Shown here piece after piece: positions 6,750 to 55,690 of a DNA stretch of 64,000 nucleotides (its first letter is position 1; each line of letters starts with the position of its first letter). The DNA lies in assembly GCA_024679065.1 (NCBI GenBank), contig JAGIQG010000018.1, forward strand, positions 40,734,001 through 40,798,000. The letters run 5' to 3'. This stretch comes from Sphyrna mokarran (lineage: Eukaryota). The translations under genes were made by a program, and so were the position numbers. The notes below the pieces were generated by a model that saw only the letters and a program-made list of their open reading frames with translations, was not told the DNA's origin and made no database searches.

Positions 6750-7185
6750 TCTGGGTGGGTGAGTGGAAGGCATTATAGAAATGTAGGCCTTTTTTGCTGT
6801 GTGAAGAGGGTGGCTGGGAAGACATTATAGAAATGCAGGTCTTCTTTGCTTTGTAAAGAGGGAAGCTGAGTGAGTGGAAAGGCACTATAGAAATGCAGGT
6901 CTTTTTGCTGTGTGGACAGGGAGTCAGGGGAGAAAAGGCACTATAGAAATGCAGGCTTTTTGGTGTAAATGAATCTGGGTGAGTGGAAAGGCACTATAGA
7001 AATGCAGGACTTTTTTGCTATGTGAAGAGGGAGCCTGGAAAGGCGCTATAGACATTCAGATCTTTTTGCTATGCGAAGAGGGAGTCCAGGTGAGTGGAAA
7101 GGCACTGTAGAAATGCACGTCTCTTTGCCGTGTGAACGGGGAGTCTGGGGAGAAAAAGGCACTATAGAAATGCAGGTCTTTTTTG
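6750..7185. repeat. Minisatellite, 8 copies of a ~52-59 bp unit
   Basis: Core 'ggcactatagaaatgcagg' (with variants) at ~6769, 6822, 6881, 6937, 6990, 7042, 7101 and 7158, mostly followed by a T-run plus 'gctgtgtgaagaggg'-like sequence. Confidence 0.9.
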
Positions 7186-11109: not shown

Positions 11110-12340
11110 CTTTGATTTGATTTATTATTGTCAGATGTATCAGTGTGCAATAAAAAGTATTGTTTCTTGCGCACTATACAGACAAAATATACCATGTGTA
11201 CAGAAGAAAAGGAGAAGGTGCAGAATGTAATGTTACAGTCAAAGCTAGGGTGTTGAGAAAGATCAACTTAATATGAGGTAGGGGCATTCAAAAGTCTGAT
11301 GGCAGCAGGGGAAAAAACTCAGCTTGAGTTGGTTGATACATGATTTCAGATTTTTATATCTTATTCCTGGTAGAAGAGAATATGTCTGGGATGCATGAAG
11401 TCCTTGATTAGACAGATTGCTTTTCTGAGGCAGTGGGAAATATGGATGGAAGGCTGGTTTGTATGATGGACTGGGCTTCATTCACGACCCTCTGTCATTT
11501 CTTGCTGAATTGGACAGAGCAAAAGCCATATACTAAGCTGTGGTACAATCAGGAAGAATAATTTCTATGGTGCATTTGTAAAAGTTGCTGAGAGTCCTAG
11601 CAGACATGACAAATTTCCTTAGCCCCTTGAGAAAGTAGAGACGGTGGGCTTTCTTAATTGTAGCGTCGACTTGGATCAGGTTGTTTGTGATTTGAATACC
11701 TGGAAACTTGAAGCTCTCAACCATTTATATTTCCCCCCGTTAATGTAAACGGGGCACGTCCTCCACTATGCTTCCTGAAGTCGATAACTATCTCATTTGT
11801 TATGTTGACGTTGAGAGAGACGTTGTTGTCATCGCACCAATTCACCAGATTCTCTATCTTTCCAAATAGCAAAATGCTGGAAAATCTCAGCAGGTCTAGC
11901 AGCATCTGTAAGGAGAGAAAAGAGCTGGCATTAAGTCCAGCTGAACCTTTGTCAAAGTTGACAAAGCAACTTTGATAAAGGGTCATTTGGACTCAACGTC
12001 AGCTGTTTTCTATCCTTATAGATGCTGCTAGACCTGCTGAGATTTTCCAGCATTTTCTTTTTTGGTTTCCAATTCCAGCATCTGCAATAACTTTTATTCT
12101 CTACCTCTTTCCTGTACTTGGTCTCATCATTGTCAGAGATCCGACCCGCTACGGTGGTGTCACTTACAAACTTGAAAATAGAGTTGGAGGGGAATTTGGC
12201 CACACAGTCATGTGTATAAGGAGTATGGTAAGGGGCTGAGGATACAGCCTTGTGGGGCACCGGTGTTGAGGATGATTGTGGAGGAGGTGTTGTTACATAC
12301 CCTTACTAATTGTAGTCTCTGGGTTAGGAACTCTAGGATC
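11110..12340 (-). mobile_element. Rex1/Babar-type LINE 3' portion (degenerate RT)
   Basis: Minus frames [38 protein letters not shown] / LVNWCDDNNVSLNV...IVIDFRK / VESFKFPG...LYFLKGLRKF...LSNFYKCTIE; tail reads 'tttgatttgatttattattgtc' on +. Confidence 0.8.
11864..12095. mobile_element. Penelope-derived palindromic element with target-site duplication
   Basis: Near-perfect inverted repeat 11871-11960 / 11967-12056; flanks 'attctctatctttcc' (11849-11863) and 'attctctacctctttcc' (12096-12112). Confidence 0.8.
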
Positions 12341-12622: not shown

Positions 12623-13210
12623 AGAACAACAAAGAACAAAGAGCAACACAGCACGGGAAACAGGCCCTTCGGCCCAACGAGCCCACGCTGCCGTCCTAAC
12701 GTCCTAATGACATATCCTTGTCTTTAGGCTATGCCTATTGTTGAAGATTCCCATATAGGGACCAATATAGGGACAATTTGTTACCCAGTCAGCCTAAAAG
12801 CACATTTTTGTGATGTGGGAGGAAACCAGAGCACCCGGAGGAAACCCACGCAACCACGGGGAGAACACACAAACTCCCGCAGACACAGGCCCAAATCCAT
12901 GTGTCAGCACAGCAACAGCGATAGTCTCTGAGCTGTCATGTTGCCCATCAGATGGTCCAGTTTAAGCATACACTGACGACGTGAAGCACTAGGCAACTCC
13001 TGAAGCAACCTCCAGGAGCAGCTCTCGCACGACATGCCGCATGCATGCCCTTGTTGGTCAACAAGGTGGACCAAATTGCCTGCGGAAACAAATAAGACTT
13101 AATTAAACATGCTAAAAAAAACTAAGACATTCCCGAGACGAAACTAAAAGATAGTCTACTACTATTTGGTCCTCCCGATATTCAAACAGTCCTGCTATAT
13201 CCCTCTATCT
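12623..13210 (-). mobile_element. 5'-truncated CR1 3'UTR carrying a structured module and a V-SINE body (copy 1)
   Basis: Minus strand reads ORF2 end 'gatagagggatatag', then the module, the V-domain and a CR1 tail 'gggccgaagggcctgtttcccgtgctgtg...ctttgttct'. Aligns with 31960-32424. Confidence 0.7.
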
Positions 13211-13800
13211 GCAGAAGAGCATGTTGTGACTGAATTAATAACAAGTCTCACTTTCCAAGAACCATCAAGAGATCACGATAATTAGATGTGAGATCTGGAG
13301 AATTCACGTAAATTAATTTATCGATTAGAAATCCAAATGCGTTCCCCCCCCCCCCCACCCCCACCTCACATCGTAATCATGACTGTACGTTTATTCCATA
13401 TGCTGATCACTCCGTGAAGAAGTTACCAGTATTACTTCTAGATTTTGTTTTAAATCTATGTTGCCATGTTCTGTTTCTGCAGTTTAATTGAAAGATATAT
13501 TTTGCTTTAACGTTTGCCCTAACACTTTGATATAGTTCCATCACGCCTTTCTTAGGTGAAAATCTCCCACCTTGTATTATGCTGTTTGGATATGTTCTTC
13601 AGCATGTTAACTCGACGTTGGTCAGACATATTTGCACTGAGTCTATTCAGATATCTTTTTCAAATTTAGTTTTGGTTATTTGAACGCTATTCATGAAACA
13701 TAAACATTGTCTTTCTTTTGTCCTTTATATAGCATGTGACATTAATCTAGATTAAATGTCATCTCCCGTTGTTCTGCCCACTGTTTTTTGTTATTCGTTG

Positions 13801-24486: not shown

Positions 24487-24671
24487 GTGATTTGCCCAAT
24501 GAAAATTATTTTTGAAGGGAAGAAATGATTTCAGCAGAAGACCCACAACACATGTTGAAATATACAAAGATTTTGAGTGGTATTCCCAATAACAATTGTT
24601 GGGTTTAAAAATTATTTAATACCATTTAAGTTATTGAAAGAAGCTTGGATTAATTTTTGACAGCTTTCATC
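24487..24671 (+). other. EPN2: EPN2 5'UTR part of the first coding exon
   Basis: Acceptor 'ttcttttctttcacag|' ends at 24486, 185 nt before the ATG. Confidence 0.7.
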
Positions 24672-25269
24672 ATGACTACATCAGCTATTCGACGGCAAAT
24701 GAAAAACATTGTAAACAACTATTCTGAAGCTGAAATTAAAGTACGTGAGGCAACTTCCAATGACCCTTGGGGACCTTCTAGTTCCTTAATGACTGAAATT
24801 GCAGACCTAACTTATAATGTAGTAGCCTTCTCAGAAATAATGAGTATGATATGGAAACGTCTCAATGATCATGGCAAGAATTGGCGACATGTTTACAAGG
24901 CTCTTACGCTGTTAGACTATATGATAAAAACTGGGTCTGAAAGAGTTGCACAACAATGCAAGGAAAACATCTTTGCTATTCAAACTCTGAAAGATTTCCA
25001 GTATATTGATCGGGATGGCAAAGATCAAGGCATAAACGTACGAGAGAAGTCAAAGCAGCTTGTCACTTTGTTGAAAGACGATGAACGGCTCAAGTCAGAG
25101 AGAGCCCAGGCGCTTAAGACAAAAGAGCGTATGGCTCAAGTAGCCACAGGAGTAGGAAGCAATAATCAAATTACTTTTGGTCGTGGATCTAGCCAACCTA
25201 ATCTGTCAACGAGCTATTCAGAACACGAATATGGAAAATCAGGAGGATCACCTGCTTCATATCATGGTT
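24672..25269 (+). CDS. EPN2: Epsin-2, first coding exon (ENTH domain)
   Basis: MTTSAIRRQMKNIVNNYSEAEIKVREATSNDPWGPSSSLMTEIADLTYNVVAFSEIM...ITFGRGSSQPNLSTSYSEHEYGKSGGSPASYHG; the post-ENTH linker is EPN2-specific. Donor T|GTAAGT, phase 1. Confidence 0.97.
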
Positions 25270-30944: not shown

Positions 30945-32424
30945 ATAAGTAACTGGCTTAGTAATAGTGGAAGGGTGTTTTTCTAGTTGGAGGTCGGTCA
31001 CTAGTCATGTGCCGCAGGGCTTGTACTGGGACCTCTTCTATTTGTAATATATATAAATGACTTGGAAGAGGGAGTAAGTGGAGTGATCAGCAAGTTTGCA
31101 GACAATACAAAGATGACTGGACTTGCGGATAGTGAGGAGCATTGTCGGGCGATGCAGCAGGACGGAAATAGGCCGGACGTTTGGGCAGATAGGTGGCAGA
31201 TGGAATTCAATCCTGATAAATGCGAGATGATGCATTTCGGGAGAAAGAATGTAGGCGGGAGGTAGCCCTATTAAGAGTATAGAAACGCAGAGGGACCTCG
31301 GGGTGCAGGTGTACAAGTCTCTGAAGGTGGCAGAGCAGGTGGAGAAGGTTGTGAAGAAAGCATATGGTATGCTAGCCTTTATAGGAAGGGGTATAGAGTA
31401 CGAGAACTGGCCTTTAATGTTGCAGTTGTATAAAACGTTAGTTAGACCTCATTTGGAATACCGCGTCTAGTTCTGGAGGCCTTACTACCAGAAGGATGTG
31501 GAGACTTTGAAGAGAGTGCAAAGGAGGTTTACCAGCATGATGCTTGGTATGGAAGGTCTGAGTTACGAGGAGAGGTTAGGCAAATTGGGGCTGTTTTCCT
31601 TAGAAAAACGTAGACTTAGAGGAGATCTAATAGAGGTGTACAAATTATGAGGGGTATAGATAAACAGGGTTAAGCTTTTTCCTAGAATGGACTCAAATAG
31701 CACGAGGGGTCACAGGCTTAGGGTGAGGGGGGGGTAAGGTATAATTTGGATGCTAGAAGGAGTTTTTTTCACCCAGAGGGTGGGGGGGGGTATGGAATGT
31801 GCTGCCAAGTAAAGTCGTGGAGACAGGCACTCTGGAGTTATTTAAGAGATATTTAGATGGGCACATGAACAGAATGGGAATGGAGGGGTATAGAAAACGG
31901 ATTTAAAATGGGGATCATGAGCCTTTATGTAAATAGATGATGATATAGATGTACTTATTTTTAATCCTACAGGTGCTTTGATCCACCTTATTGTCTAACA
32001 AGGGGCATACACGCGATGGGTCGCAAGAGGGCTGCTCTTGGGCTTTTTTCGAGAGTATCCTAGTGCTTCACGTCATTAGTGTACGCTTGACTTGGACCAT
32101 TTGATGAGCAACACGACAGCTCAGTGACTATCGCTTTGCTGTGCAGATACATGGATTTGGGCCTGTGTCTGTGGGAGTTTGCTCATTTCCCCGTGCTTGC
32201 GTGGGTTTTCTTCAGGTGCTCTAGTTTCCTCCCACATCCCAAAAATGTGCTCGTAGGCTAATTGGCAGAACAAATTCTCCCTAAATTGTCTCAAATTTGG
32301 TTTCAATCCATAGATCTATAAACATGGACAGGGATCACGGGCAGAGGTGGGAACATCGGGGTGGCGGTGCCGGTTCGTTGGGCCGAAGGGCCTGTTTCCC
32401 ATGCTGTTTTGTTCTTTGTTCTTT
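30945..32424 (+). mobile_element. CR1 LINE (RT C-terminal half) with an extended 3'UTR containing the structured module and V-SINE body (copy 2)
   Basis: ISKFADNTK...WQMEFNPDKCEMMHFG; ORF2 ends 'gaggggtatag' at ~31893; a ~530-nt 3'UTR ends in the CR1 tail 'gggccgaagggcctgtttcccatgctgttttgttctttgttcttt'. Confidence 0.85.
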
Positions 32425-53685: not shown

Positions 53686-55690
53686 ACAGCACGGTGGCAC
53701 AGTGGTTAGCACTGCTGCCTCACAGTGCTAGGGACCCAGATTCGATTCCCGGCTTGGGTGATGGTTTGGAGTTTGTATATTCTCTCTATGTCTGCGTGGA
53801 TTTCCTCCAGTCTTTGGTTTAGAACATAGAACATTACAGCACAGAACAGGCCCTTCGGCCTTCGATGTTGTGCCGACCAAAATAAAAAGCAATGCCCCTC
53901 CAAACTAAACCATTCCCTTCTCTTCCATATACTTATCAATTAACCTCTTAAACGCCACCAAACTTGGCGCATCTACAACAGCTGCAGGCAGGGCATTCCA
54001 CTCCCTAATCACTCTTTGAGTAAAGAACCTACCTCTGATATCCGTCCTATAACTCATACCCCTTAATTTAAAGCTGTGTCCCCTCGTGCTAGCTTTCTCC
54101 ATCCTAGGAAAAAGGCTATCACTGTCCACCCTATCTAAACCTCTAATCATCTTATATGCTTCAATAAGATCCCCTCTTAGCCGCCTCCTTTCTAACGAAA
54201 ACAACCTCAAATCCTTCAACCTCTCTTCATAGGACCTGCCCTCCATACCAGGCAACATCCTGGTAAACCTCCTCTGTACCCTCTCCAATGCCTCCACATC
54301 TTTCTTATAATGTGGGGACCAGAACTGCACACAATACTCCAAGTGCGGCCGCACTAGAGTTTTGTACAGTTGCAACATGATGCTGCGGCTCCTAAATTCA
54401 ATCCCCCTACCAATAAAAGCTAAGACTCCATATGCCTTCTTAACAACTTTATCCACTTGACTGCCTACTTTCAGGGATCTATTGACACATACACCAAGAT
54501 CCTTCTGTTCCTCAACACTATTAAGAGCCCTACCATTAGCCCTATACTCTACACATTTATTGTTCCTGCCAAAGTGCATTACCTCACACTTTTCCACATT
54601 AAACTCCATTTGCCACCTCTCGGCCCAGCTCTGCAACTTGTCCAAGTCACTCTGTAAACTATAACACCCCTCTTCACTATCTACCACTCCACCAACTTTA
54701 GTGTCATCTGCAAATTTACTGATCCATCCCTCAATACCCTCATCCAGATCATTTATAAAAATTACAAACAGCAGGGGCCCCAAAACAGACCCCTGAGGCA
54801 CACCACTCGTCACCGAACTCCACGATGAATATCTCCCATCAACCACCACCCTCTGTCTTCTATCTGCCAGCCAATTCCTAATCCAATTAGCTAAATCACC
54901 CTCTATTCCACACATCTGCATTTTCTGTAGAAGTCTTCCATGGGCCACCTTATCAAACGCCTTACTAAAGTCCATATATACTACATCAACCGCCTTACCC
55001 CCATCCACCTCTTTGGTCACTTTCTCAAAAAACTCAATGAGGTTAGTAAGGCATGACCTACCCTTCACGAAACCATGCTGACTATCCACAATCAATTCAT
55101 TTCTCTCTAAATAACTATAAATCCTATCCCTAATAATTCTCTCCAATACCTTGCCCACAACAGAAGTAAGACTCACTGGCCTATAATTCCCTGGAAGGTC
55201 TCTCTTCCCCTTCTTAAACAATGGGACCACATTCGCTATCCTCCAGTCCTCCGGAACCACACCCGTAACCAACGAGGACCTGAAGATCAGAGCCAGAGGC
55301 TCTGCAATCTCCTCTCTTGCCTCCCAGAGAATCCTAGGGTAAATCCCGTCCGGCCCAGGGGACTTATCCAACTTCAAACCTTCGAGAATTTCTAGCACAT
55401 CCTCCCTATCTACTACAATACTTCCCAATTTGCAACCCTGTACCTCAGTGTTCTCCATAGCTACATTTCCAGCACTCTGCGTGAATAACTACACGTAACT
55501 CCTTCCACAGTCTAAAGATGTGTGGGTTAGGTAGATTGGTCATGCTAAATAGCCCCTTCATGTTAGGGGGACTAGCTAAAGTTAATGCATGGGGTTATGG
55601 GGATAATGGTGATAGGACCTGGGTGGGATTGTGGTTGTGTAGACTCAATAGTCTAATGGCATCGTTCTGCACTGTAGGATTCTATGATCC
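53686..55690 (+). mobile_element. V-SINE split by a young CR1 insertion
   Basis: Head 'cagcacggtggcacagtggttagcactgctgcctcacag' to 'ggttt' (53820), resuming 'ccttccacagtctaaagatg' at 55501. Confidence 0.85.
53821..55487 (-). mobile_element. Young 5'-truncated CR1 LINE with an uninterrupted RT-domain ORF (53905-55458, 517 aa)
   Basis: KSPGPDGI, NYRPVSLTS, DFSKAFDKV, SGVPQGSVLGPLLF, KFADD, HLEYCVQFWSP; no stops or frameshifts; endonuclease absent; tail 'taatgttctatgttct'. Confidence 0.95.

What the first reader, a model, noticed from the sequence alone, without database searches (positions are those of the whole stretch)
31950..32424. CR1 3'UTR module: conserved splice acceptor, multi-helix RNA and promoter-less V-SINE body (copy 2, sense to EPN2)
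Seen: after the CR1 ORF2 stop (~31893) the usual short tail is replaced by ~530 nt, and a diverged second copy lies on the minus strand at 12623-13210. Homology between the copies begins at a 3' splice-site-like motif in both ('cttatttttaatcctacag|gt' and 'cttatttgtttccgcag|gc'). The next ~135 nt differ in sequence but keep most of the same pairings (copy 1 vs copy 2): outer tggtcca/tggacca (one mismatch in copy 2); hairpin ccttgttg..aacaagg vs ccttattg..aacaagg; stem gcatgcat/gtgtatgc vs gcatacac/gtgtacgc; hairpin gcgg-catg-tcgt vs gcga-tggg-tcgc; hairpin ctcctggag/cttcaggag vs tgctcttggg/ttcgagagta; and a crossing, pseudoknot-like pairing tcgtcag/ctgatgg vs tcattag/ttgatga. Then come a decayed tRNA head without a B-box, the V-SINE central domain and a normal CR1 tail. 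Inference: a CR1 lineage captured a V-SINE into its 3'UTR and keeps a structured RNA under selection. It could be a ribozyme, a translation or stability element, or an RT-recognition element, and the acceptor may allow splicing onto host transcripts. I do not recognise it as a described element.
Basis: partly seen in the sequence, partly recalled or inferred. Interest (0 to 1): 0.72.

Follow-up and report, generated by a model that had tools for sequence, protein, structure and literature searches.

The report
CR1 retrotransposon that splices out genes
This is the tail end of a very abundant jumping gene that captured part of a smaller repeat and carries a splice site; genomic copies show this site joined precisely to the element's own first exon and to a host exon, so it likely yields a short, folded RNA lacking both protein genes, whose conserved fold is predicted to help the RNA get copied back into the genome.

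Summary
Both window copies are 3' ends of one autonomous CR1 lineage (about 4.7 kb, eight subfamilies, at least 20,383 copies). Its 520-nt 3' UTR holds a splice acceptor, a 134-nt folded module, a remodelled tRNA head with a broken B-box, a V-SINE domain and the CR1 tail. Between the two window subfamilies synonymous sites differ 43% and both spacers 38-53%, but module 19%, head 7%, V domain 6%, tail 4%. The acceptor has been used: seven fetched copies join exon 1 at a GT donor exactly to it, skipping both ORFs (about 4.2 kb), and five retrocopies join a host eIF4A exon to an intronic copy. The module folds on the sense strand (z -2.4 to -6.4), but only 3 of 50 pairs change on both sides. No Rfam match and no sharp cleavage-like copy start, so a ribozyme is unlikely. 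The window copy's own subfamily has lost the donor, and this copy has a damaged branch motif. What the fold does is inferred, not shown. Repbase and Dfam could not be checked.

The parts
30960..31906 (+). 5'-truncated CR1 ORF2 (RT C-terminal part), subfamily A; stop codon 31904-31906
   Evidence: 91% to subfamily A consensus over 30960-32421; full-length relatives have esterase ORF1, endonuclease and RT
31907..31972 (+). Spacer with branch-point motif, pyrimidine tract and acceptor AG (31971-31972); this copy has a 16-nt deletion and a T-to-A change at 31947 in the branch motif that creates an upstream AG
   Evidence: acceptor use shown in other copies
31973..32105 (+). 134-nt folded module: closing helix, short hairpin and long irregular rod; alternative pseudoknot to the bases just 3' of the closing helix
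32106..32166 (+). Remodelled tRNA-derived SINE head, B-box broken
   Evidence: 15-27 of about 62 differences from free V-SINE consensuses, 1-6 between subfamilies
32167..32254 (+). V-SINE central domain
   Evidence: 8-14 of 89 differences from free V-SINEs of the same genome, 1-8 of 89 between subfamilies
32255..32370 (+). Neutrally evolving spacer with large indels
   Evidence: 24-38% difference between subfamilies except the sister pair B-B2
32371..32424 (+). CR1 3' tail: stem-loop and short terminal repeat
   Evidence: 0-2 of 51 differences between subfamilies; same hairpin type in short-tailed CR1 families
12630..13215 (-). Second copy, subfamily B, 5'-truncated just before the ORF2 stop; acceptor AG at 13081-13080
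   Evidence: 98% to subfamily B consensus
24654..25269 (+). Host epsin (ENTH) coding exon ending at a consensus donor, 6.7 kb upstream of copy 2 and in the same orientation (context only)

Best explanation
The stretch is the 3' UTR of an autonomous CR1 lineage, built from a splice acceptor, a 134-nt module predicted to fold, a captured V-SINE head and central domain and the CR1 tail; copies exist in which exon 1 is joined exactly to this acceptor, so the lineage likely splices out both ORFs to give a non-coding RNA of about 500 nt, and the conserved fold likely acts in cis to stabilise or export the RNA so that ORF2 protein can copy it. Steps: (1) shown: a 5' UTR monomer with a TATA box about 30 nt before the common copy start, then a GT donor about 45 nt in; (2) shown at DNA level: donor-to-acceptor joins in three module types, and host-exon-to-acceptor joins; splicing is inferred from them; (3) shown: constraint on module, head, V domain and tail; (4) inferred: the spliced RNA keeps the RT tail and is copied in trans; splicing lowers the supply of full-length RNA, and loss of the donor in subfamily A may have helped it become the commonest; (5) inferred and untested: the fold is an RNA stability, export or RNP-assembly element, by analogy with transport elements of intron-retaining retroelement RNAs.
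For: Exon-1 joins: L377 (skip 4223 nt, GT donor, only one shared base on each side of the junction); L504, L525, L526, L527, L529 end exactly, and L486 within a 2-nt alignment tail, at the donor of unspliced full-length copy L524. Of 15 matches to that exon-1 end, 4 run into the module and 7 into a consensus donor. The modules of these copies are closest to different subfamilies (D, A-like, B-like), so they are independent events. Host trap: eIF4A exon (E 3.6e-24), 367-nt intron piece, module copy in L523; five retrocopies share its private deletions. Branch motif, pyrimidine tract (12-15 of 17) and acceptor are kept in five of five consensuses checked although the spacer is 35-180 nt and diverged. 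Constraint: A versus B synonymous 60/140, spacers 35/66 and 39/104, module 25/132, head 4/61, V 5/89, tail 2/51; same pattern in 9 of 10 pairs. Embedded V domains are closer to each other than to free SINEs, so not homogenised by them. Sense-strand folding z -2.4 to -6.4 against -0.3 to -3.3 antisense; variable columns 17 of 40 unpaired against 18 of 94 paired, p 0.009, structure taken from the same alignment. No shared reading frame in two spliced copies.
Against: No RNA-level junction was seen: contigs of public runs laid on subfamily A showed no GT-AG joint into the acceptor among the joints listed (contigs only, lists cut, and A lacks the donor). Subfamily A, the commonest, lacks the donor in 29 of 30 5' ends, and 12 of 30 B-type 5' ends have lost it too; no exon-1 join among 56 of 57 A junction hits examined. 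So splicing is dispensable for transposition. Spliced copies are rare: 1 of 13 B-type junction hits. D-type joins share 3-4 bases between donor and acceptor, and non-splice deletions occur (L374, L461, L424, L473). Only 3 of 50 pairs change on both sides, one perhaps by CpG decay, and 12 pairs break somewhere. In the B-B2 pair the module differs as much as synonymous sites (12/133 versus 14/172). Nothing here tests stability or export.
Confidence: 0.55

Rival explanations
1. Splicing switch: the fold is a two-state structure beside the acceptor (rod versus pseudoknot) that sets how often the ORFs are spliced out, for example spliced in soma and unspliced in germ line, as recalled for the Drosophila P element.
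For: The closing helix starts 8 nt after the acceptor; two mutually exclusive pairings are both kept across eight consensuses (38 of 40 and 55 of 56 cells, slid controls 7-40 of 56); donor and acceptor are kept together in several subfamilies.
Against: The module stays intact in A and B2, which lost the donor (though recently); the pseudoknot is rich in G-U pairs (2-4 of 7); no tissue data.
Confidence: 0.2
2. Relic of capture: the element picked up a host 3' exon with its acceptor plus a SINE; the acceptor is a harmful or neutral passenger, and what is selected is DNA-level (enhancer or factor-binding) activity of head and V domain.
For: Donor loss in the most abundant subfamily; spliced copies are few and look like dead ends, as human SpIREs do (PMC5860796, abstract); head plus V fold equally on both strands.
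Against: Acceptor features survive large spacer deletions and 40% synonymous divergence; module folding is strand-specific; no source locus was seen in about 2 Mb of held loci, though the genome was not searched for one exhaustively.
Confidence: 0.17
3. Self-cleaving ribozyme or nuclease-blocking RNA that makes a defined 3' fragment.
For: Three-way junction with a possible pseudoknot; 5' ends are about twice as frequent from -50 to +20 around the acceptor as further upstream in 102 sampled copies (weak); five eIF4A chimeras all start 15-18 nt before the junction.
Against: No Rfam match over the module in five copies; no sharp peak of copy starts at acceptor, helix base or head (57, 216 and 204 raw hits, a fifth to over half of those inspected being indel variants); cleavage would cut ORF2 off its tail; the 7-nt loop that resembles an HDV-like ribozyme (recalled) varies between subfamilies.
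Confidence: 0.08

Closest known systems
CR1 LINEs of cartilaginous fishes (HER1) and their partner V-SINE HE1 (PMC3747384 table; PMC4824008 passages)
   Same: Esterase ORF1, endonuclease-RT ORF2, stem-loop tail with short repeat, 5' truncation; V domain close to free V-SINEs of the same genome.
   Different: The SINE body sits inside the LINE's 3' UTR (520 nt against about 60-100 nt in other CR1 families here); B-box broken; extra 134-nt module and a used acceptor. Direct comparison with published HE1 and HER1 sequences was not possible.
L1 SpIREs (PMC5860796, abstract and outline)
   Same: Retrocopies of spliced LINE RNA with exact donor-acceptor joins; donor changes alter splicing between subfamilies.
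   Different: SpIRE introns lie within the 5' UTR or reach into ORF1; here the intron is both ORFs and the acceptor lies in a conserved 3' UTR of a CR1.
SVA_F1 exon capture (PMC3287187, passage on MAST2)
   Same: Host exon spliced onto a retroelement acceptor and then retrotransposed repeatedly.
   Different: Here the acceptor belongs to an autonomous LINE; chimeras keep only 15-18 nt of the host exon and come repeatedly from the host locus rather than founding a large subfamily.
Bipartite non-autonomous LINEs and LINE-derived SINE bodies (PMC5786205, passages)
   Same: Products made of a LINE's 5' and 3' ends.
   Different: Described for RTE and Vingi and as LINE-to-SINE transfer; here the join is a GT-AG splice in a CR1 and the transfer ran SINE-to-LINE.
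Transport elements of intron-retaining retroviral and retrotransposon RNAs (PMC4338338 search listing; details recalled)
   Same: Structured cis element near the 3' end of an RNA that must be used unspliced.
   Different: No sequence or Rfam similarity; analogy only.

Membership tests
CR1 LINE | ORF2 with endonuclease and reverse transcriptase | tested here: met
   PF03372 and PF00078 above cut-off in full-length copy L222
CR1 LINE | Esterase-type ORF1 | tested here: met
   PF13472 E 3.5e-7, 31.3 bits against cut-off 32.9, in a decayed copy; feature named in PMC13343379
CR1 LINE | Stem-loop tail with short repeat, frequent 5' truncation | tested here: met
CR1 LINE | Placement in the CR1 clade on an RT tree | not tested
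   No reference set on hand; 75-78% nucleotide identity among subfamilies
V-SINE | About 80-nt V central domain | tested here: met
V-SINE | tRNA head with A and B boxes | tested here: not met
   B-box region deleted and changed; 15-27 of about 62 differences from free heads
V-SINE | Copies begin at the head (own promoter) | tested here: not met
   Only 204 raw hits lack the module directly upstream, many of them indel variants, against at least 20,383 copies
SpIRE-type spliced retrocopy | Retrocopy joined exactly at GT donor and AG acceptor | tested here: met
SpIRE-type spliced retrocopy | L1 element, intron inside 5' UTR or 5' UTR-ORF1 | tested here: not met
   CR1; intron spans both ORFs
Known self-cleaving ribozymes | Match to an Rfam ribozyme model | tested here: not met
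   No match over the module at E up to 10 (window copy) or 5 (four loci)
Known self-cleaving ribozymes | Site-specific cleavage | not testable with these tools
   Indirectly, no sharp peak of copy starts
RNA transport or stability element | Promotes export or stability of unspliced RNA | not testable with these tools
   Needs a reporter assay

The most novel reading that the evidence does not exclude
An autonomous LINE that makes its own SINE-like RNA by alternative splicing: a conserved whole-ORF intron, a two-state RNA switch beside the acceptor that regulates it, and a V domain that works outside a Pol III transcript; reverse transcription of these untranslated spliced RNAs is stopped about 15 nt upstream of the junction by the exon junction complex.
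Probability: 0.25. Interest if true: 0.85.

Novelty: new variant of a known kind. Interest (0 to 1): 0.68.

Why it matters
The function of conserved SINE central domains is an open question (PMC4824008 says so). Here a V domain stays constrained inside an autonomous LINE with its Pol III promoter broken, so it can be deleted and assayed directly in a retrotransposition reporter. A LINE lineage that kept a donor-acceptor pair around both ORFs across 40% synonymous divergence runs against the view of LINE splicing as an accident, and tens of thousands of 3' copies each carry a potential gene-trap acceptor, one of which trapped an eIF4A exon. The fixed 5' ends of the chimeras may report on what stops reverse transcription.

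Tried and rejected
Rfam: only chance-level hits. Metagenome scan: one match, not homologous on reading. A module-less subfamily suggested by loose ends in two runs: the two genomic matches are ordinary truncations. L348 looked spliced but is a nested insertion; L374 is a non-GT microhomology deletion; L182 is ambiguous and not counted. HDV-like fold (recalled) fails on missing or variable core pairs. RNA runs: X21 held 3 poor reads; X1-X3, X5, X16 are contigs, which cannot show strand, start or level, and gave no listed joint into the acceptor: no evidence either way. Early view that no spliced copies exist (from subfamily A alone) was overturned. First pseudoknot count used a wrong register and was redone. 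Earlier findings of this scan: none similar. A genome-wide count of copy starts 17-20 nt upstream of the acceptor was not done, so whether unspliced copies also favour that start is open. Literature: ten searches listed no paper whose title or abstract start describes this element; the 1999 and 2002 papers on HE1 and V-SINEs were not readable, no supplements were read, and Repbase and Dfam are not on hand, so an existing consensus entry is not excluded.

Full report
Observation. Copy 2 runs from 30960 to 32424 on the plus strand, with the ORF2 stop at 31904-31906 and the acceptor AG at 31971-31972. Copy 1 is at 12630-13215 on the minus strand. They are not two odd copies: a 15-mer of the module has 20,383 exact matches in the genome and none for the reversed control. 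Clustering 380 held copies gave eight groups of six or more and dropped seven copies in three small groups; five groups (A, B, B2, C, D) were analysed in depth. Copy 2 is subfamily A, copy 1 subfamily B.

The element. Walking upstream gave full-length copies of about 4.7 kb with an esterase-type ORF1, endonuclease and reverse transcriptase. Patterns for the 5' end matched 178 B-type and 231 A-type places, tandem monomers included. The 5' UTR is a monomer of about 197 nt with a TATA box some 30 nt before the point where full-length copies start. Of 419 CR1 ORF2 ends in the held loci, 205 carry the module; the other families end within about 60-100 nt of the stop. No close relative lacking the module was seen in that sample, so the order of assembly is unknown.

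Constraint. Between A and B, fourfold-degenerate sites differ at 60 of 140, the spacer before the acceptor at 35 of 66 and the spacer before the tail at 39 of 104. The module differs at 25 of 132, the head at 4 of 61, the V domain at 5 of 89 and the tail at 2 of 51. Nine of ten pairs show this pattern; in the sister pair B-B2 the module (12 of 133) matches the synonymous rate (14 of 172). Conserved blocks alternate with neutral spacers, which a single recent exchange of the 3' end would not give. Against consensuses of 96 free tRNA-headed SINEs, the embedded head differs at 15-27 of about 62 positions with the B-box broken, and the V domain at 8-14 of 89. The head was therefore remodelled after capture and then held. 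Copies do not start at the head in excess (204 raw hits, by eye about two in five of the first 100 being indel variants).

Structure. The module consensuses fold on the sense strand with z from -2.4 to -6.4, antisense -0.3 to -3.3. The consensus fold is a three-way junction: a 6-bp closing helix, a 7-bp hairpin and a long irregular rod. Over eight consensuses 29 of 50 pairs never vary, 9 change on one side, 3 on both, and 12 break in at least one group. The fold is likely real; covariation does not prove it or choose between the two forms. Rfam has no match.

The acceptor is used. I searched for module starts lacking the native upstream tract. In A, 57 hits, 56 examined: truncations, small indels, one nested insertion, one ambiguous deletion, no exon-1 join. 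In B types, 13 hits: one, L377, has the first 43 nt of the element joined at a GT donor to the acceptor, skipping 4223 nt. In C, D and A2 types, 78 hits, 32 fetched and the rest seen as 12-base listings: two recurring leaders. One is the exon-1 end: of 15 matches to it, 4 continue into the module, 7 into a consensus donor and 4 into other GT-starting sequence; six fetched copies align to the donor of full-length copy L524, and their modules belong to different subfamilies. The other leader is the end of a host eIF4A exon lying 367 nt upstream of a sense-oriented module copy (L523). Five retrocopies share that copy's private 3-nt deletion, three of them also its later 4-nt deletion, so they arose from the host locus more than once. 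All five begin 15-18 nt before the junction; under the sampled truncation rate this has a probability below one in a million. Branch motif, pyrimidine tract and acceptor are present in all five consensuses checked. Caveats: non-splice deletions also occur (3 of 60 full-length 5' ends; L374), D-type joins share 3-4 bases across the junction, and no RNA junction was seen in public contigs, which were laid on subfamily A.

The window copy. Subfamily A lacks the donor in 29 of 30 5' ends, and 12 of 30 B-type ends have lost it. Copy 2 lies sense to an epsin gene and has a change in its branch motif and mismatches in its stems. It is an inert, decaying copy; the interest lies in the family.

Mechanism. 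Most likely (0.55) the 3' UTR is a spliceable last exon. Full-length RNA makes the proteins and is the main template. Splicing from exon 1 removes both ORFs and gives a non-coding RNA of about 500 nt that keeps the RT tail and is sometimes copied in trans; the two spliced copies checked share no reading frame. The module, head and V domain are inferred to act in cis on RNA stability, export or RNP assembly. Rivals are a splicing switch (0.2), a passenger acceptor with DNA-level selection on head and V domain (0.17) and a ribozyme or nuclease block (0.08).

Comparison. It is a CR1 by anatomy and not a V-SINE (B-box and independent start fail). It works like L1 SpIREs (PMC5860796, abstract and outline seen) and like SVA_F1 exon capture (PMC3287187, passages), but the intron spans both ORFs and the acceptor is conserved. 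Bipartite LINE derivatives are described for RTE and Vingi (PMC5786205, passages). The function of SINE central domains is stated to be unknown (PMC4824008, passages). A 2026 survey of CR1-group elements has one use of the word UTR and none of splice (PMC13343379, term search). HE1 and HER1 are named in PMC3747384 (table passage). P-element splicing, transport elements, HDV-like ribozyme features and the position of the exon junction complex are recalled; PMC4338338 was seen only as a search listing. Ten searches listed no description of this element, but the original HE1 and V-SINE papers, supplements, Repbase and Dfam were not seen.

Verdict. New variant of a known kind; interest 0.68.

Noticed in passing
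L523 (G000:C960, minus strand) and L479, L481, L495, L496, L528: A module copy in an eIF4A intron trapped the upstream exon; the chimeric frame stops 35 codons into the module; five retrocopies all start 15-18 nt before the junction, at a motif that also resembles the element's own start site.
   Followed up: yes
L346, L350: Two subfamily A copies share a 14-nt leader of unknown source joined to the acceptor, again about 15 nt long: possibly a second trapped host exon.
   Followed up: partly
L492 and G000:C849:37554118: Two copies share a 9-nt leader before the module start (listing).
   Followed up: no
L419, L421, L440, L456: 5' UTR monomers of about 197 nt in tandem, each ending in a TATA box placed about 30 nt before the next monomer's start; exon 1 folds into a hairpin in both B and D types.
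   Followed up: partly
L461, L424, L473: Full-length 5' ends joined to internal or 3' parts by non-splice deletions (bipartite copies).
   Followed up: partly
L049, L126, L245, L182: A short-tailed CR1 family is repeatedly inserted head-to-head (antisense) into this lineage near its 3' end.
   Followed up: no
L055, L071, L163: Copies with inverted 5' parts around the module, as in twin-priming inversions.
   Followed up: no
window 53905-55488 (minus): A 527-codon open CR1 ORF2 piece of a short-tailed family, probably a young copy.
   Followed up: no
window 11862-12065: Near-perfect inverted repeat, 99-nt arms 6 nt apart, 87% complementary.
   Followed up: no
window 6766-7185: Eight tandem copies of a 52-60 nt unit.
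   Followed up: no
public runs X1, X2, X3, X16: Contigs from runs under other organism codes cover the module and spacer at 85-99% identity, so the lineage is probably shared by related species.
   Followed up: partly
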